Below are positions 7,709 to 24,703 of a stretch of 64,000 nt of DNA, piece by piece. Location of the stretch: positions 23,116 through 87,115 of IMG/VR virus record IMGVR_UViG_3300035424_000154. One strand, written 5' to 3'. How positions within the stretch are numbered: the stretch's first letter is position 1; every line of letters starts with the position of its first letter. Made by a program: the position numbers and the translations under genes. Below the pieces are notes generated by a model. The model did not search any database. It saw only the letters and a list, made by a program, of their open reading frames with translations, and had not been told where the DNA came from. The DNA comes from a virus. Taxonomy: Duplodnaviria > Caudoviricetes.

Positions 7709-7722
7709 TAACCAATGAGATT

Positions 7723-7776
7723 GGGACGCTAACAGCCATTTTACAATATCAATTTTTCTTTGACACAATGCGTCCT
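7723..7776 (+). ncRNA. Stand-alone stem-loop RNA A with ACAGC(C)A module
   Basis: GGGACGC(7723-29)/GCGTCCT(7770-76) terminal helix, TA-ACAGCCA after 5' strand, AAT before 3' strand; matches copy C. Confidence 0.65.
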
Positions 7777-7787
7777 ATGAAGCCCAT

Positions 7788-7878
7788 GGAGGGGTAAGCC
7801 TAATTGGTAAGGCCCCGGTTTGCTAAACCGGCAGTAACCCGAAAGGGCGTATGGGTTCGAGTCCCATCCCCTTCGCCA
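7788..7878 (+). tRNA. tRNA-Ser(GCT), canonical
   Basis: Acceptor GGAGGGG/CCCCTTC, CCGGT-TT GCT AA-ACCGG anticodon arm, long variable arm, GGTTCGAGTCC T-loop, G73 plus CCA. Confidence 0.95.
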
Positions 7879-7930
7879 GGACAGTGCATCCACACAGTCC
7901 ATAACAATGTGGAGAACTTCTGGCACCTCC

Positions 7931-7948
7931 TCTCTCTCTCTCTCTCTC
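7931..7948. repeat. (TC)9 microsatellite
   Basis: tctctctctctctctctc directly visible, upstream of the paired GAAAGA hairpins. Confidence 0.9.
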
Positions 7949-7996
7949 TTTGACGGCGGGAAAGACCGCTGACAGCCTGGAAAGACAGGCGCATAT

Positions 7997-8110
7997 GGGA
8001 AGCGTCTGGTAGGCAGCATTACAGTGTAATAGACGGCGGACACTTACAGCAATTTTACATAAAAAGACTTGAAATCTTTTGCTTGCGGTTCGACTCCGCA
8101 GCTCCCCACA
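7997..8110 (+). ncRNA. tRNA-like RNA B with inserted ACAGCAA module; retains TGA (Ser) anticodon hairpin
   Basis: Acceptor GGGAAGC/GCTCCCC, T-arm TGCGG-TTCGACT-CCGCA, AAAGA-CT TGA AA-TCTTT hairpin; module GACAC-TT-ACAGCAA at 8046-52 lies 5' of the hairpin. Confidence 0.75.
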
Positions 8111-8148
8111 AAGCCGTCATAGCGATTCTCAGAAAGGAGGTTCGTGCC

Positions 8149-8178
8149 GTGAACAGAGTACGCGACCAGACCATTTGA
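8149..8178 (+). CDS. Putative 9-aa micropeptide MNRVRDQTI
   Basis: AAGGAGG at 8134-40, 8 nt before GTG. Confidence 0.35.
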   Translation: MNRVRDQTI

Positions 8179-8288
8179 GCTATCTATGGAAAAATGTATT
8201 CGGCTGAAATGTATGGGGCGGTGCCCCGACAAAATGTGAACCGCTCACAAAAGTGCGGAAAATTGGGACGCAGTTAAGGAGGCTCTGC

Positions 8289-8318
8289 ATGAATAAAGCA
8301 CGAGACAAGCCCTGGTAG
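8289..8318 (+). CDS. Putative 9-aa micropeptide MNKARDKPW
   Basis: AAGGAGG at 8276-82, 6 nt before ATG; resembles 8149 peptide. Confidence 0.35.
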   Translation: MNKARDKPW

Positions 8319-8365
8319 CGGATGAACCAATCGTACATTCGATCTGATGATTTTTGAACAACATA

Positions 8366-8415
8366 TGGACGCTAACAGCAAATCATTCATAAATTTGAAA
8401 AACAAAATGCGTCCA
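8366..8415 (+). ncRNA. Stand-alone stem-loop RNA C with ACAGCAA module
   Basis: TGGACGC/GCGTCCA terminal helix; TA-ACAGCAA at 8375-81; AAT before 3' strand. Confidence 0.7.
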
Positions 8416-8457
8416 CTACACATCTGGCGAACGCCATTCATGGATATAGCGGTTTAT

Positions 8458-8514
8458 AGGGGCTTCCGTTTCCAATGTGTTTCAGATGACACAGACAGCA
8501 ATTAAAAAGCCCCT
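8458..8514 (+). ncRNA. Stem-loop RNA D with internal ACAGCAA module
   Basis: AGGGGCTT/AAGCCCCT closing helix enclosing AAT-GTGT..ACAC-AG-ACAGCAA (8495-8501). Confidence 0.65.
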
Positions 8515-8519
8515 GATAT

Positions 8520-8636
8520 GCGGGGATAGCTCAGTGGATAGAGCGGCGGTATAAGAAATGTGGAACGGGTATTTCACTAACAGCAAAATTCTTGGGGAAC
8601 CGTAAGTCGTAGGTTCGATTCCTACTCCCTGCACCA
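8520..8636 (+). ncRNA. tRNA-like RNA E (Pro-GGG-like) with 48-nt anticodon loop carrying the module
   Basis: GCGGGGA/TCCCTGC acceptor, TAGCTCAG..AGAGC D-arm, GCGGT/ACCGT anticodon stem, GTTCGATTC T-loop, ACCA end; loop ends TT GGG GA. Confidence 0.8.
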
Positions 8637-8720
8637 GCCGTTTGGGAACGGTGCATACAATCAAATCTCCTTTGCATGACGGTGGGAACGACCACTACTG
8701 CCGTGTAAGCGCGGCAATAT

Positions 8721-8840
8721 GCGGGCGTAGCTCAAGTGGTAGAGCAACCGACAATACAAAGTGTGTCATGGTATGACACCAACAGCAATTTCTTTGGAAA
8801 AATCAGTTTGTTGGAGGTTCGAGTCCTCCCGCCCGCATCA
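8721..8840 (+). ncRNA. tRNA-like RNA F (Phe-GAA-like) with 51-nt anticodon loop carrying the module
   Basis: GCGGGCG/CGCCCGC acceptor, canonical D and T arms, ACCGA/TCAGT stem, GTGTCAT/ATGACAC hairpin then ACAGCAA (8782-88); ends ATCA. Confidence 0.8.
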
Positions 8841-8843
8841 TAT

Positions 8844-8918
8844 GCCACTGTAGCTCAGTTGGTAGAGCGCTGCAAGACAATGTTCAGGCCGTCATTGGTT
8901 CGAGTCCAATCAGTGGCA
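8844..8918 (+). ncRNA. tRNA-like RNA G with degenerate anticodon arm, no module
   Basis: GCCACTG/CAGTGGC acceptor, canonical D and T arms, anticodon stem mismatched and loop non-canonical, no encoded CCA. Confidence 0.7.
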
Positions 8919-9099
8919 AGTTAATTTTTCACGAAGATGCAATCGCCAGCGTTGTGTCGGGAGTAAGTGGCTGGAAGTCCTCGAAGTACAAGGGGCCGTC
9001 TAAGGGTGTTCAGCAAAGGACGTAAAATAAGTGTAGTAACCGTGCAAATCGGAACGTCTGGGAAGTGTGCTACTCCCACCTGTGAGAGCCAGGATTATA

Positions 9100-9212
9100 T
9101 GTGTGGTGGCGGAATATGTAGACGCAAGTGGTTCAGGCGTGAGAACCGCCCGGAGTGTGCGCACACAAACGGCAGAAGACGCTTTGCGAGGTGAAAATCC
9201 TCGCCCACACAT
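9100..9212 (+). ncRNA. Leu-type tRNA-like RNA with expanded anticodon/variable region and atypical T-loop
   Basis: TGTGTGG/CCACACA acceptor, GCGGAATATGTAGACGC D-arm, GCGAGG-TGAAAAT-CCTCGC T-arm. Confidence 0.65.
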
Positions 9213-9219
9213 ATGATAA

Positions 9220-9337
9220 GCCAGGGTAGCTCAGTCGGTAGAGCACGTATCAATGCGTATCCAAGGAAACGCTTACAGCAATTTTTAAAAAGGACTTTTT
9301 AATCCCGTGGTCGTGGGTTCGAGTCCCACCCTTGGCA
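9220..9337 (+). ncRNA. tRNA-like RNA H (Lys-TTT-like) with 44-nt module inside the anticodon stem
   Basis: GCCAGGG/CCTTGGC acceptor; CG[9248-9291]GGA pairs with TCCCG; loop CTTTTTAA; ACAGCAA at 9275-81. Confidence 0.8.
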
Positions 9338-9456
9338 CAAAACGCTTTGTTTCTGGTTTCTTGGGCGTATAACCAACTAAACCAGCGGGGGCCAAATTTT
9401 CGGTGCAGACAACGATAAGTGGGAACCGATGACCGCTCGGAAAGACGAGCAATTAT

Positions 9457-9561
9457 GCCGGGATAGCTCAGCGGTAGAGCAGTATCGGACGGTACCGCCG
9501 ACAGAATGTACATTCTGGACATTTAATCTACAGGTGGCAGGTTCGACTCCTGCTCCCGGCG
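9457..9561 (+). ncRNA. tRNA-like RNA I with 33-nt two-hairpin insert inside the anticodon stem
   Basis: GCCGGGA/TCCCGGC acceptor; GTA[9485-9517]GA pairs with TCTAC; loop CA TTT AA; insert has degenerate ACAGAAT. Confidence 0.75.
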
Positions 9562-9566
9562 TTCAT

Positions 9567-9688
9567 GCGGCAGTGGTGAAGTGGTAACACAGCGGTCGTC
9601 GAAATGCGAAGTGCAAAATTTCGCTAACAGCAATTTTCGGACAAAGCCAAACCGCCATGCGCAGGTTCGATTCCTGCCTGCCGCTCCA
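9567..9688 (+). ncRNA. tRNA-like RNA J (Gly-GCC-like) with 54-nt anticodon loop carrying the module
   Basis: GCGGCAG/CTGCCGC acceptor, GCGGT/ACCGC stem, loop ends GCC AA, U73 plus CCA (Gly identity); ACAGCAA at 9627-33. Confidence 0.8.
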
Positions 9689-9690
9689 TT

Positions 9691-9730
9691 CTCTGAACAC
9701 AAACAGCAACAACGACAAACGTGTTCCGGG
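9691..9730 (+). ncRNA. Stem-loop K with ACAGCAA module in the leader of the DUF2828 gene
   Basis: GAACAC/GTGTTC helix, AA-ACAGCAA at 9703-09; about 13 nt before the AGGAGG RBS. Confidence 0.6.
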
Positions 9731-9757
9731 TATCTCAAAATTAGGAGGTAAGAGACA

Positions 9758-11317
9758 ATGAGCAACTTTATGGATGGACTCAAGAGCACTCTCAACGACG
9801 AGCGTTCTGTCACTGAGAACGGCGCGGTCGGGTTCCGCACTACGGGCCGGTCGCTGCTGGATCTGAACTTTGCTGTGGCCTCTCTGCGGAGCGCCAGTGA
9901 GAAGGATATCCAGAATCGCTTCTCCAAGGCATTCTTCGAGGATAAGCTGACGGCAATGAAATGGCTCTTTTATGCGCGTGATGTGCGCGGTGGCCTGGGT
10001 GAGCGGCGCTTGTTCCGCGCCTGCATGGTGCCGATGGCGAAGGAGTTCCCCGAGTACGTCCGGCCCATCGTCAAGCTGATCCCTGAGTATGGACGCTGGG
10101 ACGACCTGTGGTGCCTGCTGGACACGCCGGTGGCCGATGAGGTCATGCACAACGTATCTTTGCAGCTGACTGAGGACAACCACTTCTATGAGCAGAACCA
10201 GCCCATTTCTCTGCTGGCGAAGTGGATGCCGAGATGCAAGTGCCGGAACAAGGACAGGCGGCGTTATGCCACGATGTTGCGGGGATACCTTAACCTGACC
10301 GAGCGTGACTACCAGCACACGCTGTCTGCTCTGTGCCGCCACCTGAAGGTGGTTGAGATGGATATGTCGGCTCAGAACTGGGATGGCATTGACTATCAGC
10401 GTGTCCCCTCCCGTGCCAACCTGCAGTATAACAGTGCGTTCCTGCGGCACGACGAGGATCGGCGGCGGGCGTTCTTGGCGGCGGTTGAGAAGGGCGAAGC
10501 GAAGATCAACGCTTCTGTTCTGTTCCCTCATGATATCGTGCATCAGTATCGTCGTGCTGGCAGCGGCATTGACAGCAATCTGGAAATGCTGTGGAAAAAC
10601 CTGCCTGACATGGTGCAGGGTTGCGGCAATACCATCGTGGTGGCCGATGGTTCCGGCAGTATGAGTGTCAACGTGGGTGGTACCAACGTGTCTGCTCTGG
10701 AGGTCGCAAACGCACTGGCGATCTATTTTGCTGAGCGTTCCTCCGGCCAGTTCAAGGATCAGTATATCACCTTCTCTGAGCGTCCCCAGCTGGTGGATTT
10801 GAGCCACGGGAAGAATCTCCGCGAAAAGCTGAGGATTGCGGCAACTCATAACGAAGTTGCCAACACCAACGTCGAGGCGGTGTTTGACCTGATTCTTACC
10901 ACGGCAATTAACAAGCACATGGAGCAGAGCGAGTTGCCGGCCAATATCCTTATCATTTCTGATATGGAGTTTGACAGCTGCGCCACTACCAACGCTCAGC
11001 CTCGTAGGGGCTACAGCTGGGGGTACAGTAGCTGTGTGGCCCCTACTTCTACCCTGTTTGAGGTGATCGCCAAGCGATATGCTGACGCCGGATACCAGCT
11101 TCCTCGTCTGGTGTTCTGGAATGTCAATTCCCGTACTGGCACCATCCCTGTTAAGGAGAACGATTTGGGGGTCGCCCTGGTTAGTGGCTTTTCTCCCAAT
11201 GTCGCCAAGATGGTTATGAGCGGCAAGCTCGATCCCTATGATTGCCTGTTGGAGGCGATCAATGCTGAGCGGTATCAGCCGGTGGACGATGTTCTGCGGC
11301 CTGTAATTTTCACTTAG
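9758..11317 (+). CDS. DUF2828-family protein (TROVE/Ro60-like helical domain plus C-terminal VWA)
   Basis: TENGA, LFYARDVRGGLGERRLF, YGRWDDLW, LAKWMPR, RVPSRA, LFPHDIV, MIDAS DGSGS, ISDMEFD, FWNV, LVSGFSP; AGGAGG RBS. Confidence 0.85.
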   Translation: MSNFMDGLKSTLNDERSVTENGAVGFRTTGRSLLDLNFAVASLRSASEKDIQNRFSKAFFEDKLTAMKWLFYARDVRGGLGERRLFRACMVPMAKEFPEYVRPIVKLIPEYGRWDDLWCLLDTPVADEVMHNVSLQLTEDNHFYEQNQPISLLAKWMPRCKCRNKDRRRYATMLRGYLNLTERDYQHTLSALCRHLKVVEMDMSAQNWDGIDYQRVPSRANLQYNSAFLRHDEDRRRAFLAAVEKGEAKINASVLFPHDIVHQYRRAGSGIDSNLEMLWKNLPDMVQGCGNTIVVADGSGSMSVNVGGTNVSALEVANALAIYFAERSSGQFKDQYITFSERPQLVDLSHGKNLREKLRIAATHNEVANTNVEAVFDLILTTAINKHMEQSELPANILIISDMEFDSCATTNAQPRRGYSWGYSSCVAPTSTLFEVIAKRYADAGYQLPRLVFWNVNSRTGTIPVKENDLGVALVSGFSPNVAKMVMSGKLDPYDCLLEAINAERYQPVDDVLRPVIFT

Positions 11318-13345: not shown

Positions 13346-14190
13346 GCAGAAGCGCCAGAAGATTATGGCGCGTATGCAGGAACACTTGGTTCCCGTCCTG
13401 GAACATTGTAGGGGGGGGGTGGGTCGGCCTCTTTCTGCAAGGTTCCCAAAACTATAACCTTGATTATGAGGGAAGTGACATTGATACCAAAGCTATCTTG
13501 CTTCCCAGTTTTTCCGACTTTGTTTGGAACAGAAAACCAACCAGTACGACCCACATCATGGAAAATGATGAGCACGTAGATTTCAAGGATATTCGGCTCA
13601 TGTTTGACTGCTTCAAAAAGCAGAATGTCAACTTCGTCGAAATCCTGTTTACTCCCTACTGCATTATCAATCCTATGTATGAGGATCTGCTTCAGCCGGT
13701 GCTAGATGCCCGAGAGGAGATTGCCCGCTACAACAATTATGCTGGTATGAGGTGCATTATGGGTATGGCTTACGAGAAGCAGAAAGCAATGGAGCACCCC
13801 TACCCTGCCACAATCGACAAAATCAAAGTGTATGGATATGATCCGAAGCAACTCCATCATGCTTTGAGGCTGCGGGAGTTTATGACCAGATACATGGCCG
13901 GCGAAAATTATGCTGATTGCTTGGTTAGCAAACAGCGTGATTATTTGAAAGATGTAAAGAAGGGTTGTTACTCCCTGGACGAAGCTCGTGCTTTGATGAA
14001 TGTTACGATCAAATCCATGGCTGAGGATAAGCAGCAGTATATGGAGGCTGTTCCGGCCATTATCAATGAGCACGCCGACGAGGTGCTGAAAACGGCCACG
14101 GTTGAAATTCTCAAAAGGAGCTTCCTGAACGAGATTCAAAGAGGTGATCAAGTTGCAAACGTTTTACATGATGGTTGGCCTGCCCGGTAG
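13323..14190 (+). CDS. Pol-beta superfamily nucleotidyltransferase, frameshifted at G9 (13411-19)
   Basis: GSQNYNLDYEGSDIDTK (GS..DxD); RBS plus ATG 13323 joins the main frame only if the tract is G8. Confidence 0.75.
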
Positions 14191-15070
14191 TGGTAAATCA
14201 CTCACTGCCAGGACTTTCCCCAATACCATCATCCATTCCAGCGATGCAATCCGTGCGGAAATCTTGGGTGACGAGAACCGGCAAGACCAACAAGAGCTGG
14301 TGTTCCAGACGCTTCACGAGCGAGTGCTGAATGATCTGGCAAGCGGCAAGAATGTCGTGTATGACGCCACCAATATCAACTACAAGCGTCGTATGGAGTT
14401 CTTGCAGCAGGTAAACGCGATGAAGCTCCCCAGCCTTAGAACGGTCTGTGTCTTTTTGACCACTCCGTATGAGGAGTGCATAGAGCGCAATGCCAACCGA
14501 GAGCGCTCTGTTCCAAGGTCTGTAATTCGTAGAATGTATGAGAAAATCGACATTCCTATGAAAGCAGAAGGATGGGACGAAATTTGGGTTTTTGGCGACA
14601 TAAAGGATTACTATGGCCGGTTAGAAACCTTTATGAGCCATCTGTCCAAGCTGGAGCATGATAATCCCCACCATACATACACAGTCGGTCAGCATTGTAT
14701 GGCGGCATGGCAATACCTGATCAGCCACTATAAGGACTACGATGCTTGTCTGCTCCGTGCCACTCTCTTGCACGATATCGGCAAGGAAAAAACCAAAGTG
14801 TTCTATGACACTAAAGGCAACCCCACGGATATTGCCCACTACTATCATCATGAGCGTGTGGGCGCTTATGACAGTTTCTGCTACACCAGCGATCTCAGCA
14901 ATGACCAACGCCTGATGGTTGCGCTTTTGATTCGCTGGCATATGTGGCCGTATGTAGTGGAAAAGTCAGATAACCCGAACAAAACCGCTCGTAAAGTGCG
15001 GCGGTTGCTCGGTGAAGATATCTGGAAGCAGGTTGCGGTCTTGAATGACTGTGATCGACACGCACACTAA
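14144..15070 (+). CDS. Polynucleotide-kinase-like P-loop (AAA_33) plus HD domain
   Basis: GLPGSGKS, SSDAIR, YDATN; HHTYTVGQH, LLHDIGK, HHERVGA. Confidence 0.85.
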   Translation: MIKLQTFYMMVGLPGSGKSLTARTFPNTIIHSSDAIRAEILGDENRQDQQELVFQTLHERVLNDLASGKNVVYDATNINYKRRMEFLQQVNAMKLPSLRTVCVFLTTPYEECIERNANRERSVPRSVIRRMYEKIDIPMKAEGWDEIWVFGDIKDYYGRLETFMSHLSKLEHDNPHHTYTVGQHCMAAWQYLISHYKDYDACLLRATLLHDIGKEKTKVFYDTKGNPTDIAHYYHHERVGAYDSFCYTSDLSNDQRLMVALLIRWHMWPYVVEKSDNPNKTARKVRRLLGEDIWKQVAVLNDCDRHAH

Positions 15071-19117: not shown

Positions 19118-19675
19118 ATGAAAGTTCTTGTGATCGTAGATATGCAGAACGATTTCATTGATGGTGCCCTTGGGACGCCGGCAGCACAGGCTATTGTTGA
19201 TAACGTCGTTAAGAAAATCGACCAGTTTGATGGCGACGCAATCTACATTACCAAGGATACGCACCAGCGCAATTATCTGGAGACTCAGGAGGGCAAGTTG
19301 CTCCCTGTTGAGCACTGTATTGAGGAGACGGCGGGATGGAGACTCCACGATGCTGTGGCTACGGCTGTCAGCCATGCGGCTATTGACTTTCACAAAGGTG
19401 TGTCGGTATTCCAGAAGGACACTTTCGCCTCTGTTGATCTGGGCGAGTGCCTGGATACTCTTTCTCAGCGGCAGCGTGTAGATGAGGTGGTTGTGATTGG
19501 CCTCTGCACCGATATCTGTGTTATTTCCAACGCTTTGCTTATCAAAGCGTTTCTGCCAGAGGTGAAGATCACTGTTGATGCTGCCTGCTGTGCTGGTGTA
19601 ACCCCTGAAAGCCATGCCAATGCTTTGGTCGCTATGAAGGTGTGCCAGATCAATGTGGAGAACTGGGAGGGCTGA
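19118..19675 (+). CDS. pncA: Nicotinamidase / isochorismatase family
   Basis: VIVDMQNDFIDGALG, TKDTH, HC, KDTF, GLCTDICV. Confidence 0.85.
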   Translation: MKVLVIVDMQNDFIDGALGTPAAQAIVDNVVKKIDQFDGDAIYITKDTHQRNYLETQEGKLLPVEHCIEETAGWRLHDAVATAVSHAAIDFHKGVSVFQKDTFASVDLGECLDTLSQRQRVDEVVVIGLCTDICVISNALLIKAFLPEVKITVDAACCAGVTPESHANALVAMKVCQINVENWEG

Positions 19676-19676
19676 G

Positions 19677-20471
19677 ATGTTTACGGTAAATGGTGAAAAG
19701 CTCTCCCCTACATCCTTCCCAGACAAAACCTGCTCTTTGCGGCTTTACGCAAGAGACGACGCTTACAAGATTGACTGGAAGTATGATGGCGACCACGAGT
19801 GTATGTTGCTTTGGAACCTTGTTCATCATATCCGGGCCAACAATGGGGAGAATACTCCAATCGGGCTGTATATGCCATATGTGCCCAATGCGCGTATGGA
19901 TCGTGTGAAAAACTGCGATGAGGTTTTCACCCTCAAATGGTTTGCGGAGTTTATCAACAGCCTGCATTTCTCCTATGTCCAAGTATTTGATCCCCATTCT
20001 AATGTCTCTGAGGCTTTGATTAACCATGTCGAGACTATTGCAGCCCATGACTGTATTGAGTCGGTGATCGACGAACTGAACGGCAAGCGCAACATGAATG
20101 TTTTGCTGTGCTACCCCGACGAGGGTGCAGCCAAGCGGTACTCTGCTATGTTCCAGATGGACTATGTGTTCTGTATCAAGCACCGCGATTGGCGTACCGG
20201 CAAAATTGAGCGTTTGGAGCTGACTGACTCATGGAAGGTTGTTGGGCAGAACGTTTTGATCGTAGATGATATTTGCTCTCGTGGCGGTACGTTCACCCAT
20301 ACCGCTAAGGCTTTGAAAGAGGCTGGGGCAAAAGAAATCTTCCTTTATGTCAGCCATTGTGAAAACACCATTTTGCAAGGTGATGTGCTGACAGACGGCA
20401 TGATCTCCCGCGTGTTCACTACCAGTAGTATCCTTCGCGCTTCCCATGAAAAAATCTCCATCATTGACTGA
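19677..20471 (+). CDS. prs: Ribose-phosphate pyrophosphokinase-like (Prs/Adps-like)
   Basis: SFPDKT, MPYVPNARMDR, FDPHS, PDEGAAKRY, IVDDICSRGGTF. Confidence 0.85.
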   Translation: MFTVNGEKLSPTSFPDKTCSLRLYARDDAYKIDWKYDGDHECMLLWNLVHHIRANNGENTPIGLYMPYVPNARMDRVKNCDEVFTLKWFAEFINSLHFSYVQVFDPHSNVSEALINHVETIAAHDCIESVIDELNGKRNMNVLLCYPDEGAAKRYSAMFQMDYVFCIKHRDWRTGKIERLELTDSWKVVGQNVLIVDDICSRGGTFTHTAKALKEAGAKEIFLYVSHCENTILQGDVLTDGMISRVFTTSSILRASHEKISIID

Positions 20472-20487
20472 AAGAGGGTATCAAACA

Positions 20488-21984
20488 ATGATTTCATACA
20501 ATCCTTTGCTGTGCCTGGACTTCTATAAGACAGCGCACGCGGAGCAGTATCCTGAAACGCTGACCAAAATGGTATCCTACTACACGCCCCGTATGACCCG
20601 CCTGCCTGACGTGAATAAGATCACGATGTTTGGTTTGCAGGCGTTTATTCAGGAATACCTGATTGAGGCGTTCAACACCTACTTTTTCAACCGTCCTCTC
20701 GGCGAGGTTATGAAAGAGTACGTTCGGATTCTGGGCTGTACCATTGGCACAGTTGGTGTTGGCTATGGTCGTGTGAAAGCGCTTCACGAGTTGGGCTACC
20801 TGCCCCTTATGATTCGTGCTGTGCCGGAGGGTACTCGCACCGACATCCATGTCCCGCAAATCGAAATCTCGAATACCAACCCCCACTTTGTCTGGTTGGT
20901 CAACAGCATTGAAACTATGCTGTCCTGCTCCATGTGGCACACTCAGATCTCAGCTGAGGTGGGATACCGTTATCGGCAGATTGTCAACGAGTTTGCTGAT
21001 ATCACCTGCGACGACAGCGTGGTGCGGGCAAAGCTCCTGGGCGACTTTTCTATGCGTGGTCAGGAAAGTGTTGAGAGCGCCACCAAGAGTTCTGCTGCAT
21101 TCTGCCTGAGCTTTTTGAATACGGCCACTGTGCCGGCCATCCTCTGGCTGGAAAAGAATTATGCCTGCCGTGTTGAGAATGAGCCTGTGGCTTACGGTGC
21201 TCTGTCCACTGAGCATAGTGTCATGTGTTCCAACTACGCTGTGGACGGTGATGAGGTAACACACATCAAGCGTCTGTTGAAAGAGGTTTATCCGCACCAG
21301 AACTTCTCTATGGTCAGTGACAGCTATGACTACTGGAACCTGGTAGACAATATTCTTCCTCAGATCAAGGACGACGTTCTGGCACATGATGGGTGTCTCG
21401 CCGTTCGTGGAGATAGTGGCGACCCCGTAGAGGTCGTAACTAAGACCGTGTTCAAACTGTGGGATATCTTTGGCGGCACTGTAAACAGCAAGGGCTACAA
21501 AGTTCTTGATCCGCACGTTAAGGCACTCTATGGTGATAGTATTACTCCACAGCGCTGCGAGGCGATCTATCAGATTCTCATGGAGCGTGGGTTCGCTATC
21601 GACAACGTCTCGTTGGGTGTTGGTTCCTTCTCCATGCAGTGTCTGGAGACAACGGACGGTAATAGCAAGGCTTATGCGCCTTATACCCGTGATACCTTTG
21701 GCATCGCTGTCAAGGCTACTTATGCTGAGGATTATAAGGGCAAGCCCATTATGATTTACAAGAATCCCAAGACCGATAGCAGTCATTTTAAGAAGTCCCA
21801 GCGTGGGTGTTGCCGTGTTATATATGACTTCCACAGCGACACCTATCAGTACCAAGATGGTTTGACATGGGCGCAGGCTAATATGCCTGGAAACTGGCTG
21901 GTCCCCGTGTTCAAAAACGGCCAGATGCTCCGTGTTTTTACCTTGGGCGAGGTACGCAAAAATCTCCATGGAGGTGAGTTTTAA
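20488..21984 (+). CDS. Nicotinamide/nicotinate phosphoribosyltransferase (NAMPT/Namat-like)
   Basis: LDFYK..H..QYP, DFSMRG, STEHSVM, SMVSDSYD, RGDSGDP, LYGDSIT, GVGSFS, KKSQRG. Confidence 0.9.
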   Translation: MISYNPLLCLDFYKTAHAEQYPETLTKMVSYYTPRMTRLPDVNKITMFGLQAFIQEYLIEAFNTYFFNRPLGEVMKEYVRILGCTIGTVGVGYGRVKALHELGYLPLMIRAVPEGTRTDIHVPQIEISNTNPHFVWLVNSIETMLSCSMWHTQISAEVGYRYRQIVNEFADITCDDSVVRAKLLGDFSMRGQESVESATKSSAAFCLSFLNTATVPAILWLEKNYACRVENEPVAYGALSTEHSVMCSNYAVDGDEVTHIKRLLKEVYPHQNFSMVSDSYDYWNLVDNILPQIKDDVLAHDGCLAVRGDSGDPVEVVTKTVFKLWDIFGGTVNSKGYKVLDPHVKALYGDSITPQRCEAIYQILMERGFAIDNVSLGVGSFSMQCLETTDGNSKAYAPYTRDTFGIAVKATYAEDYKGKPIMIYKNPKTDSSHFKKSQRGCCRVIYDFHSDTYQYQDGLTWAQANMPGNWLVPVFKNGQMLRVFTLGEVRKNLHGGEF

Positions 21985-22718
21985 TGTTGTCCGATCCGAA
22001 GCGAACCAAGGATGAGATTGTCAAGTGGATTCGTGACTATTTCAATGTGAACGGCCCCAACTGTGACGCTGTGATTGGCATTTCTGGTGGCAAAGATTCG
22101 AGTGTCGTCGCTGCTCTCTGTGTTGAAGCTCTAGGGAAGGAAAGAGTAGTTGGCGTCCTTATGCCGTGTGGGGAGCAGGCTGATATCGAGGACAGTAAAC
22201 GGATCGTGGAGCATCTTGGTATCCGGTCGTATCTGGTAAATATCCAGAGTCCTGTTGACTCCATTTTGTTCAGACTCCGTATTAAAATGGACGTTAGTGA
22301 GCAGACAAAAACGAACCTGCCTGCTCGTATCCGCATGGCTACACTCTATGCTGTTGCTCAGTCTCTTTCTAATGGTGGGCGGGTAGCTAATACCTGTAAT
22401 CGCTCTGAAGACTTTGTGGGGTACTCTACGAAATTTGGTGACAGCGCCGGAGATTTCAGCCCTCTTGCTAATCTTATGGTGCATGAAGTGATCCAAATTG
22501 GCTATGAGCTGGGGATTCCTGTTGACTTGGTGGATAAGGTTCCGTCTGACGGCCTGTGCGGTAAGACAGATGAAGATAACCTTGGCTTTACCTATGCCCA
22601 GCTTGATAATTATATCAGCAAAGGTACGTCCGGTTCTATGGATATCGACAAGAGAATTTCCGACCTACACGCCCACAACCTTCACAAGCTCACTCCTATG
22701 CCTATGTACTGTTTTTGA
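21984..22718 (+). CDS. nadE: NH3-dependent NAD+ synthetase
   Basis: GISGGKDS, NLPARIRM, TCNRSE..VGYSTKFGD, PSDGL, TDEDNLGFTY. Confidence 0.93.
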   Translation: MLSDPKRTKDEIVKWIRDYFNVNGPNCDAVIGISGGKDSSVVAALCVEALGKERVVGVLMPCGEQADIEDSKRIVEHLGIRSYLVNIQSPVDSILFRLRIKMDVSEQTKTNLPARIRMATLYAVAQSLSNGGRVANTCNRSEDFVGYSTKFGDSAGDFSPLANLMVHEVIQIGYELGIPVDLVDKVPSDGLCGKTDEDNLGFTYAQLDNYISKGTSGSMDIDKRISDLHAHNLHKLTPMPMYCF

Positions 22719-22728
22719 GGTAAATTCA

Positions 22729-23499
22729 ATGGTTACACAATCGAATAATTGTATACATGATGACTGTGTACATTGTAAAGATGGTAGTTGTAATTGTTTA
22801 TCAGATGGTACATTCTTCGGAGATAATTGTCCTCTTTATCGAAGGTTTTATTTGAACAAAGTTGAAATCTGTGATGCAATGGAAGCTCTTGATCGGATTA
22901 AAGGAGTCGCGGATCTACTTGTAACAGATCCACCATATAAAACAATTACGGGTGGGGACTCTGATGGTAAAAACTCTGTTCGTCCAAAGGGGATGTTGGG
23001 CGGGAACCGAAAACTGTTTGATTATCAAACAGAATTAAAACCATCTGATTGGATGTCAAAGGTATACGCTGCGTTAAAAGACAACACTCAAGCGTACATA
23101 TTTACTAATGTACTCAATTTGGAGGAGATGCTGGCAGCAGCAAGAAGCGTAGGATTTAAGCTACACAATGTTTTGGTCTGGGAAAAGAATAACTGTACTC
23201 CTTCACAATACTACATGAAGAACTGTGAGTATATTCTCTTCCTTCGTAAAGGTAAAGCAAAATACGTCAATAACATTGGAGCGAGCAAAACAGTTCACCA
23301 ATTTGCGAATGTTCGAGGGAAGCGTCATCCGTGTGAAAAGCCAGTTGATTTATTGCGATTCTATATTGAAAATTCAAGTATCCCTGGTGATATCGTGTTA
23401 GATCCCTTTGCAGGATGTGGAAGCACTATGGAAGCGGCATTATCGTGTGGTCGAGATTTTGTGGGGTTTGAAATCAATCCTCAATGGAGGGCAAATTAA
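22729..23499 (+). CDS. N4/N6 DNA methyltransferase (beta class)
   Basis: TDPPY motif IV, HPCEKP, VLDPFAGCGST motif I. Confidence 0.88.
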   Translation: MVTQSNNCIHDDCVHCKDGSCNCLSDGTFFGDNCPLYRRFYLNKVEICDAMEALDRIKGVADLLVTDPPYKTITGGDSDGKNSVRPKGMLGGNRKLFDYQTELKPSDWMSKVYAALKDNTQAYIFTNVLNLEEMLAAARSVGFKLHNVLVWEKNNCTPSQYYMKNCEYILFLRKGKAKYVNNIGASKTVHQFANVRGKRHPCEKPVDLLRFYIENSSIPGDIVLDPFAGCGSTMEAALSCGRDFVGFEINPQWRAN

Positions 23500-23501
23500 G
23501 T

Positions 23502-23648
23502 ATGGAAGAGGACAAAGTTTGTTTTAACTGTGCCTTTTGTAGTGAAAGCTATCCAAGTTTTGTGGATACTTGCGATGTTGATGATCATGTAGTCCGTGAT
23601 GTATGTCATGAAACTTGTGAGAACTTTCTAAGGTTGGATGAGGAGTGA
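23502..23648 (+). CDS. Small Cys-rich protein (48 aa)
   Basis: GGAGG RBS; CFNCAFC...C..C; translated by hand. Confidence 0.5.
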   Translation: MEEDKVCFNCAFCSESYPSFVDTCDVDDHVVRDVCHETCENFLRLDEE

Positions 23649-23857
23649 TTGGTCAGGGTAATCCAGTCAATGTTGGTTCTGGCTTTTCAGATGAGCAACG
23701 TGTAAAATTTTGGAAACATCGGGACGAGCTGATTGGAGTTCTTTGTGAAGTTAAGTATAAAGAGATTTCCAGTGATAAGAAAACCAAAGCTCATAGCTTA
23801 CGATTTCCAACCTTTGAGACGTTACGAACTGATAAGAAGGATGTCAGCTATGGATAA
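23645..23857 (+). pseudogene. Remnant: OB-fold C-terminus of an ATP-dependent DNA ligase
   Basis: VNVGSGFSDEQR...EVKY...SLRFPTF...RTDK with no adenylation domain (KxDG) upstream. Confidence 0.75.
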
Positions 23858-23886
23858 GGGGTAAGAGCAGAATAAAAAATCACATT

Positions 23887-23903
23887 GAAGCAAAAATACA
23901 TAG
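23887..23903 (+). promoter_or_regulatory. Element-wide intergenic motif, copy 5 (abuts -35)
   Basis: GAAGCAAAAATACATAG immediately followed by TTGACA. Confidence 0.75.
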
Positions 23904-23932
23904 TTGACAGTGTGAAAATAGTGTGATACAAT
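23904..23932 (+). promoter_or_regulatory. Sigma-A promoter with extended -10
   Basis: TTGACA(23904-09)-17 bp-TG.TACAAT(23927-32). Confidence 0.8.
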
Positions 23933-23982
23933 AAAGGGGAAGTGAGGGATGCTCACATTGCTCCCTCACATCTCTCCCCAAA

Positions 23983-23999
23983 GAAACAAAAATACATAG
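23983..23999 (+). promoter_or_regulatory. Element-wide intergenic motif, copy 6
   Basis: GAAACAAAAATACATAG before AGGAGG. Confidence 0.75.
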
Positions 24000-24016
24000 T
24001 TCAGGAGGAGTTACCA

Positions 24017-24703
24017 TTGAATTATCAGACTGCCCTTTTCTGCGAGTTTGATAAGTACGCCGCAGAAAGCTATTGCGCAGTTCATGGCGTTGATCCGAGT
24101 CTTAACATCGGCGATATAACCCAGGCCGATGAGACGGTTGTCCCTGATTTCAACGTTATGTTCGGTGGGAGTCCGTGTCAGGACTTTAGCATAGCGGGCA
24201 AACAGGGGGGGGCTGCATGGAGCTGTAAAGACTGCGGTCATATTTACAACCCCTTAGAGGCTCGCTACGATCAGCGCGATTGCTGTCCCAAGTGTGGTTC
24301 AACCACTATTGAGAAGACCCGATCTTCCCTACTTGTTGAGTGGCTACGTTTTCTCAGAGAAAAGGAACCTCGCTTCGCTATTTACGAGAATGTCAAAAAC
24401 ATCACTGGCTCGCGTTTCCGCTCTACTTTCGACCTCTTTGTCAAAGAGCTGGAGGACTACGGTTACAACGTCTATTGGAAGGTTCTGAACGCGAAAAACT
24501 ATGGTATCCCTCAGAACCGTGAGCGTGTCTATTGTGTCATTATCCGCAAGGACATGGACAACGGGAACTTCAAGTTCCCCGCTCCGATTCCGCTGAAAAA
24601 AGCACTGGTGGATATGCTTGATGACAAGGTTGACGAACGCTACTACCTGTCCGACGATAAGGTAGCTGCCATGATCACCCCCCCCACTCAAACAGATCAG
24701 TAA
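24017..24703 (+). CDS. C5-cytosine methyltransferase, N-module (motifs II-VIII, no motif I)
   Basis: AGGAGG plus TTG; EFDKYA, GDIT, GGSPCQDFS, ENVKN, PQNRERV; Zn-ribbon insert CKDC..CPKC; ends after C8 tract 24678-85. Confidence 0.85.
   Translation: MNYQTALFCEFDKYAAESYCAVHGVDPSLNIGDITQADETVVPDFNVMFGGSPCQDFSIAGKQGGAAWSCKDCGHIYNPLEARYDQRDCCPKCGSTTIEKTRSSLLVEWLRFLREKEPRFAIYENVKNITGSRFRSTFDLFVKELEDYGYNVYWKVLNAKNYGIPQNRERVYCVIIRKDMDNGNFKFPAPIPLKKALVDMLDDKVDERYYLSDDKVAAMITPPTQTDQ

What the first reader, a model, noticed from the sequence alone, without database searches (positions are those of the whole stretch)
9220..9561. Inserts placed inside the 5' strand of the anticodon stem (RNAs H and I): precise removal would restore a tRNA
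In H, deleting 9248-9291 gives CG|GGA pairing with TCCCG around loop CTTTTTAA (8 nt, Lys-like). In I, deleting 9485-9517 gives GTA|GA pairing with TCTAC around CA TTT AA. Bacterial tRNA introns are group I/II elements of hundreds of nt in the anticodon loop; 33-44 nt inserts in the stem are not a type I recognise. They could be protein-excised mini-introns or permanent decorations that block decoding. The 8-nt loop and A33 argue against efficient normal decoding.
Basis: partly seen in the sequence, partly recalled or inferred. Interest (0 to 1): 0.78.

Follow-up and report, generated by a model that had tools for sequence, protein, structure and literature searches.

The report
Phage tRNA look-alikes carrying extra arms
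Two lysine-tRNA-shaped genes in a gut phage are each interrupted inside the anticodon stem by a conserved folded insert, and at least one insert is most likely a permanent docking arm for the phage's Ro60-like RNA-binding protein, not an intron.

Summary
Observation confirmed. H (9220-9337) and I (9457-9561) score as tRNAs in Rfam, at 47.9 and 46.7 bits. Each carries an insert in the 5' strand of the anticodon stem: 44 nt at 28|29 in H and 33 nt at 29|30 in I. Both look derived from tRNA-Lys(UUU).

Homologues keep the same insertion points. The three base pairs beyond the H-type insert covary across many phages. Neither RNA is decaying: H is 93% identical to its L001 copy, while the neighbouring gene is 70% identical.

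The H insert is the window's best copy of a conserved "handle", a covarying 7-bp hairpin followed by ACAGCAA. The handle also stands alone, sits in a D-loop, and sits in the leader of the next gene. That gene (DUF2828) folds like Ro60. Handle and gene travel together whichever one is used to search.

The I insert is different: two covarying hairpins forming a four-way junction, with no handle.

I found no BHB motif and no splicing endonuclease. I found no RNA ligase in the 87 kb of phage sequence, which is 63% complete. Insert-free tRNAs with the same anticodon coexist with decorated copies in related arrays.

Best reading (0.55): retained arms on tRNA-mimic, Y-RNA-like RNAs. Splicing remains possible (0.2). 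No RNA data could be obtained. The scan has noted this handle-on-tRNA theme in at least 49 other genomes. I found it neither in Rfam nor in the papers searched.

The parts
9220..9337 (+). RNA H: tRNA-Lys(UUU)-like gene with a 44-nt insert at 28|29 and an 8-nt anticodon loop
   Evidence: Rfam tRNA 47.9 bits, model positions 1-71. Split-stem analysis. 93% identical to L001:3292-3408.
9248..9291 (+). H insert, the 'handle': hairpin 9255-9272, ACAGCAA at 9275-9281, A/U-rich tail
   Evidence: Best hit of covariance model R1 in the whole window: 9247-9294, 44.4 bits, E 4e-10. The model's hairpin is 96% paired, with double changes in 7 of 7 pairs.
9292..9307 (+). Distal anticodon hairpin of H: GGA, loop CTTTTTAA, then TCCCG (its last CG pairs with C27 G28)
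   Evidence: Direct reading. Covariation of the three distal pairs in homologues. Same arm in the insert-free tRNA-Lys of L133.
9457..9561 (+). RNA I: tRNA-Lys(UUU)-like gene with a 33-nt insert at 29|30 and the loop CATTTAA (A at position 33)
   Evidence: Rfam tRNA 46.7 bits. Homologues L125:666-769, L129:3986-4088 and L068.
9485..9501 (+). I insert, hairpin 1
   Evidence: Predicted fold. 100% paired in three homologues, with 3 pairs changed on both sides.
9502..9517 (+). I insert, hairpin 2 (a 16-nt perfect palindrome here). It abuts hairpin 1 and the GA of the stem, giving a four-way junction with no linker.
   Evidence: Predicted fold. 100% paired, 2 pairs changed on both sides, with G-U pairs in the homologues. 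No R1 handle match.
9518..9531 (+). Distal anticodon hairpin of I: GA, loop CATTTAA, then TCTAC (its last TAC pairs with the GTA at 9482-9484)
   Evidence: Direct reading. Identical in all homologues, but the searches required it.
9758..11317 (+). Ro60-like protein gene (Pfam DUF2828 + DUF7788), the likely partner of the handle
   Evidence: Pfam and PHROGs matches. AlphaFold model with pLDDT 80. The top 13 PDB fold matches are all Ro60/TROVE.
9695..9726 (+). Handle-like copy in the leader of the Ro60-like gene: stem GAACAC/GTGTTC with AAACAGCAA after the 5' strand
   Evidence: Direct reading. Equivalent copies lie in the leaders of L001 and L002. Not scored by R1, because its topology is permuted.
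8016..9646 (+). Five further handle copies in the same array: 8016-8065, 8469-8514, 8552-8599, 8755-8801 and 9598-9646
   Evidence: R1 hits, all on the + strand and none elsewhere in the 64 kb.

Best explanation
H and I are descendants of tRNA-Lys(UUU) that have become tRNA-shaped non-coding RNAs. Their inserts stay in the mature RNA as extra arms.

In H the arm is the conserved handle: a hairpin plus single-stranded ACAGCAA. It most likely docks the Ro60-like DUF2828 protein encoded about 420 nt downstream. The intact acceptor, D and T arms and the small anticodon hairpin would then present a tRNA face to some tRNA-binding factor. Candidates are a host anticodon nuclease, a synthetase or a repair enzyme. 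This is the logic of a Y RNA such as YrlA, with the topology reversed.

In I the arm is a pair of stacked hairpins that turns the anticodon stem into a four-way junction. I carries no handle, so its partner is unknown.

Shown: the anatomy, the covariation, the conservation, the gene-RNA association and the Ro60 fold. Inferred: physical binding, retention of the insert, and the role of the tRNA face.
For: (1) The H insert is the top hit of handle model R1 in the window, at 44.4 bits. The handle hairpin covaries strongly, and no shuffle of 500 reaches its score.

(2) The same handle occurs where splicing is meaningless. It closes free stem-loops and sits in the leader of the Ro60-like gene. It lies in the D-loop of L001:3659-3776.

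(3) The association holds in both directions. Of 34 phage loci in which the handle model scored (found at first by a DNA motif alone), 24 carry a DUF2828 homologue of 36-79% identity. Of 80 bacterial-genome loci chosen by the protein alone, 37 have handle hits. All 56 of those hits are upstream and co-oriented.

(4) The protein folds like Ro60. Ro60 proteins bind Y RNAs encoded next to them, including in phages, and YrlA contains a tRNA-like domain (PMC4201824, PMC12135203).

(5) The insert is under purifying selection: 89% identity to L001 against 70% for the neighbouring gene.

(6) Insertion points differ between tRNA families: 28|29, 29|30, 31|32 and the D-loop. They share no junction motif. 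No BHB can be drawn at either junction (direct reading).

(7) The phage record has no match to a tRNA-splicing endonuclease, RtcB or an Rnl2-type ligase. Five related host-type genomes have no splicing endonuclease either.

(8) Normal and decorated tRNAs with the same anticodon coexist: Lys(UUU) in L125 and Pro(UGG) in L060.

(9) After removal H would have an 8-nt loop and I would have A33, both poor for decoding (established tRNA knowledge).
Against: No RNA-level data were obtained, so retention of the insert is inferred.

The distal anticodon hairpin is kept by compensatory changes. In most 28|29-class members it has a canonical Y-U-NNN-A-A loop. That is what a spliced, decoding tRNA would need.

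Copies with anticodon UUU carry A73, the lysine discriminator.

This phage record has no insert-free tRNA-Lys.

I carries no handle, so the Ro60 argument does not cover it.

RtcB, which could seal a cut tRNA, is present in 4 of 5 related host-type genomes.

The phage record is only 63% complete.
Confidence: 0.55

Rival explanations
1. The inserts are a new kind of protein-dependent mini-intron in the anticodon stem. An unknown endonuclease cuts at both junctions, perhaps guided by the handle or by the four-way junction. A ligase such as host RtcB then joins the halves to give working tRNA-Lys species.
For: Exact removal gives a 5-bp stem and a cloverleaf. The distal stem covaries and its loop is usually canonical. 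An insert-free tRNA-Lys with the same arm exists in L133. RtcB is present in 4 of 5 related host-type genomes. A polynucleotide-kinase/HD gene lies nearby at 14144-15070. This phage record shows few normal tRNAs.
Against: No BHB can be drawn and there is no shared junction motif. Distances from the handle core to the two junctions vary. No splicing endonuclease was found in the phage record or in five related host-type genomes, and no ligase in the phage record. The handle also occurs in contexts that cannot be spliced. Decorated copies coexist with normal tRNAs of the same anticodon. The products would have an 8-nt loop (H) or A33 (I). No insert-free copy of I was found by an exact-match scan of IMG/VR.
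Confidence: 0.2
2. The decorated RNAs are still charged, and perhaps still decode. They would be nuclease-resistant stand-ins for host tRNA-Lys, with the arm and the odd loop (A33, or an extra U) shielding them from host anticodon nucleases.
For: Acceptor, D and T arms are intact. A73 goes with UUU. The setting is a counter-defence island with RNA-repair genes, NAD-salvage genes and DNA methyltransferases. Phage tRNAs with altered anticodon loops that evade host nucleases are known (my own knowledge, not checked here).
Against: A 33-44-nt arm at 28-30 lies where the ribosome grips the anticodon stem (established structural knowledge), so decoding is unlikely. CCA is not encoded after H or I. 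Nothing here tests charging.
Confidence: 0.1
3. The RNAs are precursors that are cut at the insert to release tRNA halves or a small handle RNA with its own role, without rejoining.
For: Free-standing handle RNAs exist in the same array. A polynucleotide-kinase/HD end-healing gene is nearby.
Against: Conservation of the split stem and the distal hairpin argues for an intact folded molecule. No cleavage signal is evident.
Confidence: 0.07
4. H and I are tRNA pseudogenes disrupted by junk insertions.
For: ARAGORN does not call either one in default mode. The loops are non-canonical. The T arm of the L125 copy and the acceptor stem of the L129 copy each carry a mismatch.
Against: H is 93% identical to its L001 copy, against 70% for the adjacent coding gene. 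All helices, including those inside the inserts, are kept by compensatory changes. The same insertion points recur across phages whose Ro60-like proteins are only 36-79% identical.
Confidence: 0.03

Closest known systems
YrlA-type bacterial and phage Y RNAs with Ro60/Rsr (Rfam RF02553; Chen et al. 2014, PMC4201824)
   Same: A small RNA gene beside a Ro60-fold protein gene. One module is for the protein and one mimics tRNA with D and T arms. Found in phages as well as bacteria.
   Different: In YrlA the RNA ends form the protein-binding stem and the acceptor stem is closed by a loop. Here the ends form a normal acceptor stem and the protein module sits inside the anticodon stem. An anticodon hairpin is kept. 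The partner is the DUF2828 branch of the family, not an annotated TROVE protein. RF02553 does not match (27.5 bits against a gathering score of 69, at another place). The ACAGCAA handle has no counterpart in the Y RNA descriptions I read.
Thermus phage phiLo Ro60 with Yrl1 and Yrl2 (PMC12135203; PDB 9KOP, 9L5Y)
   Same: A phage Ro60 with its partner RNAs encoded directly upstream. 9KOP and 9L5Y are the best fold matches to the window's protein.
   Different: Yrl1 and Yrl2 are stem-bulge-stem RNAs with a CGAA motif. They are not whole tRNA shapes and carry no ACAGCAA handle.
Archaeal tRNA introns at non-canonical positions, cut at bulge-helix-bulge motifs (PMC4090602, PMC3241643)
   Same: Short inserts, tens of nt long, that can lie in the anticodon stem, including 29|30. 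Exact removal restores the tRNA.
   Different: No BHB can be drawn at the H or I junctions. No splicing endonuclease was found in the phage record or in related host-type genomes. The closest relatives of the Ro60-like gene lie in Clostridia genomes, so the host is likely a bacterium. The inserts carry their own conserved structure.
Group I introns in bacterial and phage tRNA anticodon loops
   Same: An interruption of a bacterial-type tRNA gene in the anticodon arm.
   Different: Those introns are hundreds of nt long, self-splicing and placed in the loop. These inserts are 33 and 44 nt, lie in the stem, and match no Rfam intron family.

Membership tests
Canonical tRNA (Rfam RF00005) | Acceptor, D and T arms in cloverleaf order | tested here: met
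   47.9 bits (H) and 46.7 bits (I), full model span, gathering score 29.
Canonical tRNA (Rfam RF00005) | Uninterrupted 5-bp anticodon stem with a 7-nt loop and U33 | tested here: not met
   The stem is interrupted at 28|29 (H) and 29|30 (I). H has an 8-nt loop and I has A33.
Canonical tRNA (Rfam RF00005) | Aminoacylation and decoding | not testable with these tools
No biochemical data exist.
Group I intron in tRNA | Intron of some hundreds of nt with a catalytic core, placed in the anticodon loop | tested here: not met
   The inserts are 33 and 44 nt and lie in the stem. There is no Rfam intron hit, even at E up to 1.
Archaeal-type BHB tRNA intron | Bulge-helix-bulge motif spanning both splice sites | tested here: not met
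   Direct reading. The four nt that end the 5' exon cannot pair with the four nt before the 3' junction in either H or I. The inserts instead fold on themselves.
Archaeal-type BHB tRNA intron | A splicing endonuclease (PF01974) available | tested here: not met
   No match in the phage record (63% complete) nor in 5 related host-type genomes. The control genomes gave matches.
YrlA-type Y RNA (RF02553) | Encoded next to a Ro60-fold protein gene | tested here: met
   H ends 420 nt and I ends 196 nt upstream of 9758-11317, whose model matches Ro60 structures.
YrlA-type Y RNA (RF02553) | Protein-binding stem formed by the RNA's 5' and 3' ends, with the acceptor stem closed by a loop | tested here: not met
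   The ends form a normal acceptor stem and the module is internal. RF02553 scores 27.5 bits against 69, and not on H or I.
YrlA-type Y RNA (RF02553) | Bound by the Ro60 protein | not testable with these tools
   Only genomic association is shown.
   H insert: 44.4 bits, E 4e-10. H was one of the 34 sequences used to build the model, so its match is partly by construction. Its hairpin has 4 clean pairs plus 2 inner ones.
   No match even at E up to 10 on the 105 nt alone. None on the I-type copies of L125 or L129.

The most novel reading that the evidence does not exclude
H and I are precursors of a hitherto unknown class of protein-spliced introns in bacterial-virus tRNAs, placed in the 5' strand of the anticodon stem. 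The Ro60-like ring protein, or an unknown nuclease that reads the handle or the four-way junction, would direct two cuts. A host ligase such as RtcB would then reseal the tRNA, giving the phage tRNAs that stay hidden from host nucleases until they are matured.
Probability: 0.18. Interest if true: 0.9.

Novelty: new variant of a known kind. Interest (0 to 1): 0.66.

Why it matters
If the favoured reading holds, phages of gut Clostridia build Y-RNA-like particles from whole tRNAs by grafting a protein handle into the anticodon stem. This extends the Ro60/Y-RNA system to the large DUF2828 protein family, which has homologues in 706 phage records. It also points to a use for tRNA mimicry in the conflict over tRNA cleavage and repair.

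The anticodon of these RNAs changes between close relatives (UUU, CUU, GUU, GAU, GCU on similar bodies). That pattern would fit an arms race with tRNA-targeting defences, though I did not test this.

If the inserts are instead spliced, this would be the first protein-dependent tRNA intron class in the bacterial world. Either outcome can be tested with simple RNA blots in cultured hosts that carry related prophages.

Tried and rejected
- ARAGORN in intron mode gave inconsistent intron placements and odd anticodons for the array. I rejected it in favour of the split-stem analysis.
- ARAGORN rescue after the exact deletion proved non-specific. It also calls a tRNA for 327 of 570 arbitrary deletions in H.
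- A coding reading of the conserved AAATG start of the handle: the frames differ between copies, so I rejected it (direct reading).
- A promoter or terminator role for the motif: the consensus scan found nothing above shuffles. Covariation with G-U pairs points to RNA structure.
- The I palindrome as a repeated operator: there is no other good copy in the window.
- An I insert read as a degenerate handle, since ACAGAAT resembles ACAGCAAT: rejected. The homologues have other letters there and R1 finds nothing.
- A sequence search of the protein against PDB chains found nothing. Only the fold search showed the Ro60 likeness.
- An exact-match scan for an insert-free copy of I found none.
- Minimum-energy folding does not form the 2-3-bp split stems, as expected for such short helices. 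It says nothing either way.

Full report
SETTING. The window is part of an 87-kb IMG/VR virus record that is 63% complete. The closest relatives of its Ro60-like gene, at 79% identity, lie in genomes of gut Clostridia such as Dysosmobacter segnis and Hominicoprocola fusiformis. The host is therefore likely a bacterium.

Positions 7720-9760 on the + strand hold a dense array of small RNA genes. One is a normal tRNA-Ser(GCU). One is a tRNA with an 8-nt loop. Five are tRNA-shaped genes of 105-119 nt that Rfam's tRNA model matches end to end with a long insertion in the anticodon arm. Directly downstream lie a DUF2828/DUF7788 gene, a cysteine desulfurase, a nucleotidyltransferase, a polynucleotide-kinase/HD fusion and PAPS-reductase-like genes. 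NAD-salvage genes and DNA methyltransferases follow. The region looks like an island for tRNA and RNA handling and for counter-defence.

THE OBSERVATION. H (9220-9337) has C27 G28, then 44 inserted nt (9248-9291), then GGA, the loop CTTTTTAA and TCCCG. I (9457-9561) has GTA, then 33 inserted nt (9485-9517), then GA, the loop CATTTAA and TCTAC.

I tried every way of dividing the 5' strand between the two sides of the insert.

A control is needed here. ARAGORN finds a tRNA after the exact deletions: a (tttt) tRNA for H and Lys(ttt) for I. It also does so for 327 of 570 arbitrary deletions in H. The boundaries must therefore rest on pairing and comparison, not on that rescue.

COMPARISON WITH HOMOLOGUES. 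H-type genes, with the insert at 28|29, occur in many phage contigs and Clostridia genomes. In 11 of them every stem cell pairs, and pairs 28-42, 29-41 and 31-39 change on both sides. The distal stems seen are GGA/TCC, GGT/ACC, TGC/GCA and CGC/GCG. Bacterial-genome loci add CAC/GTG, GAC/GTC, GCT/AGC and GGC/GCC.

The loop is usually a canonical seven: CTTTTAA, ATTTTAA, CTGTTAA, CTGATAA, ATGCTAA or CTCTTAA. The 8-nt loop of H is shared only with L001 and is a local variant of the Lys(UUU) loop. An insert-free phage tRNA-Lys in L133 has the very arm that H would have without its insert and its extra T.

H is 93% identical to its L001 copy and the insert alone is 89% identical. The adjacent protein gene is 70% identical at the DNA level. 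This is the opposite of decay.

I-type genes were found in three further contigs: L125, L129 and L068. All are split at the same point and have the same loop, although my search patterns required that loop. Their tRNA bodies differ from the window's.

WHAT THE INSERTS ARE. They are of two kinds.

The H insert is a copy of a module shared by most RNAs of the array. The module is AAAUG, then a hairpin whose ends read G-Y-G and C-R-C, then Y-W-ACAGCAA-W. On 34 copies from 17 sources the 7-bp hairpin is 96% paired, and all seven pairs show changes on both sides. No shuffle of 500 reaches the observed covariation. A covariance model built from them (R1) hits the 64-kb window six times. All six hits are on the + strand inside the array, and the H insert is the best at 44.4 bits. 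The model hits 95 places in 34 phage loci.

The I insert does not match the model at all, even when the 105 nt are searched alone at E up to 10. It consists of two adjacent hairpins that abut each other and both halves of the anticodon stem. The arm thus becomes a four-way junction without linkers. Both hairpins are 100% paired in three homologues. Three pairs in the first and two in the second change on both sides, and G-U pairs appear, which points to RNA and not to a DNA palindrome.

THE PARTNER. The gene at 9758-11317 has no sequence match in the PDB. Its AlphaFold model (pLDDT 80) has Ro60/TROVE structures as its best 13 fold matches. These include Ro60 from Xenopus, human, Deinococcus and Thermus phage phiLo, all at probability 1.00 and covering the full length.

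Handle and gene travel together in both directions. Of 34 phage loci in which the handle model scored, found at first through a DNA motif alone, 24 carry a DUF2828 homologue of 36-79% identity, where checked directly beside the array. Most of the rest are short or truncated pieces. Of 80 bacterial-genome loci chosen by the protein alone, 37 have handle hits. All 56 hits lie upstream of the gene on its own strand, and none lies inside or downstream of it.

A permuted copy of the handle sits in the gene's own leader at 9695-9726, about 17 nt before the ribosome-binding site. L001 and L002 have the same arrangement. This is a common arrangement for RNA-binding proteins that regulate their own synthesis (inference).

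Ro60 proteins bind Y RNAs encoded beside them, in phages too. The bacterial Y RNA YrlA contains a tRNA-like domain (PMC4201824, PMC12135203, PMC7824862).

INTRON OR ARM. Several points argue against an intron.
- The handle also occurs where nothing can be spliced. It closes free stem-loops, lies in the D-loop of L001:3659-3776, and sits in an mRNA leader.
- Insertion points differ between tRNA families: 28|29 for the Lys-type, 29|30 for I, 31|32 for the Pro- and Gly-types, and the D-loop once.
- The junctions share no motif, and the distance from the handle core to each junction varies.
- No bulge-helix-bulge can be drawn at either junction (direct reading).
- The phage record has no match to the tRNA-splicing endonuclease, RtcB or an Rnl2-type ligase. 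Five related host-type genomes lack the endonuclease.
- Decorated genes coexist with insert-free tRNAs of the same anticodon in the same array: Lys(UUU) in L125 and Pro(UGG) in L060.
- After removal H would have an 8-nt loop and I an A33.

Other points argue for an intron.
- Removal gives a clean cloverleaf.
- The small distal hairpin is kept by compensatory changes and usually has a canonical loop.
- Copies with anticodon UUU carry A73.
- RtcB is present in 4 of 5 related host-type genomes.
- This phage record has no insert-free tRNA-Lys.

No RNA data could be had. I put retained arms at about 0.55 and splicing at about 0.2.

HOW IT MOST LIKELY WORKS. H is transcribed within the array and trimmed like a tRNA. 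It keeps its handle, which docks the Ro60-like protein. The tRNA body and the exposed anticodon hairpin then act as bait or adaptor for a tRNA-binding factor. The handle-protein link is supported by genomic association only. The identity of the tRNA-side partner is open.

The anticodon on closely related bodies changes between UUU, CUU, GUU, GAU and GCU, all ending in U36-A37-A38. That would fit rapid adaptation of what the bait imitates, but I did not test this.

I shares the tRNA-Lys ancestry and the array, and it occurs in contigs that also carry handles (L129 and L068). It bears a different arm, so I cannot assign it to the Ro60-like protein.

COMPARISON WITH WHAT IS KNOWN. The closest known kind is the Ro60/Y-RNA pair, above all YrlA. 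The differences are the reversed topology, the retained anticodon hairpin, the ACAGCAA handle and the DUF2828 branch of the protein family. Rfam 15 has no matching family. The papers I could search mention neither the handle nor DUF2828 in this context.

Earlier notes of this scan describe the same handle-on-tRNA theme in at least 49 other genomes, with the same favoured reading. They are unchecked AI notes, and I reached my reading from my own tests. None of them covers the I-type insert.

VERDICT. This is a new variant of a known kind.

Noticed in passing
window 9105-9213: Another tRNA-shaped RNA directly upstream of H. It has acceptor strands GTGTGGT and CCCACAC, a type-II-like D arm, a T arm with the odd loop TGAAAAT, and a long internal insert. 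Rfam and ARAGORN both miss it. It is conserved in L001, and a similar RNA lies in L125 at 960-1100.
   Followed up: no
window 7951-7991, 8660-8700, 9420-9450: Hairpins with GAAAGA or GAACGA hexaloops lie just before the 5' ends of several RNAs of the array. They are often preceded by GACAGC and are conserved in L001, L002 and L129. They may be processing signals.
   Followed up: no
window 8844-8918: A tRNA with an 8-nt anticodon loop (ARAGORN anticodon 'acaa') and a mismatch in the anticodon stem. It is the second 8-nt loop in one array, beside H.
   Followed up: no
L060:11196-11346 and L060:11817-11939 (minus strand): Two tRNA(CAU)-like genes with 77- and 50-nt inserts just 5' of the anticodon loop. 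These inserts are not handles. They contain a T-arm-like hairpin inside a closing stem, like a mini tRNA nested in a tRNA.
   Followed up: no
L010:4042-4646 and L067:9400-9988: ROOL RNAs (Rfam, 379-387 bits) sit inside large phage tRNA arrays. Each of those loci also holds one handle copy, and L067 has a tmRNA as well.
   Followed up: no
L003:4001-5560: This DUF2828 homologue (60% identity) has an in-frame stop under table 11, and no handle hit was found in the locus. It may be a broken gene or a recoded stop.
   Followed up: no
window 19653-24703: Genes for ribose-phosphate pyrophosphokinase, nicotinamide phosphoribosyltransferase and NAD synthetase, followed by two DNA methyltransferases. 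This is an NAD-regeneration and anti-restriction set near the RNA island.
   Followed up: partly
window 9567-9685 and homologues: The Gly-type decorated RNAs keep the bacterial tRNA-Gly identity set (G1-C72, C2-G71, G3-C70, U73). They have a GCC or UCC triplet preceded by A-A where C/U-U is expected, so A33 is not peculiar to I.
   Followed up: partly
window 7928-7949: A run of CT dinucleotides (about 11 units) between tRNA-Ser and the next RNA of the array.
   Followed up: no
28|29-class loops in L005, L009, L039, L040, L060, L074, L135-L192: Nearly all anticodons in this class end in U36 followed by A37-A38. That is the class of tRNAs reading A-starting codons, which normally carry t6A37. 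The exception is L112:9381-9501 (loop ATGAGGC).
   Followed up: partly
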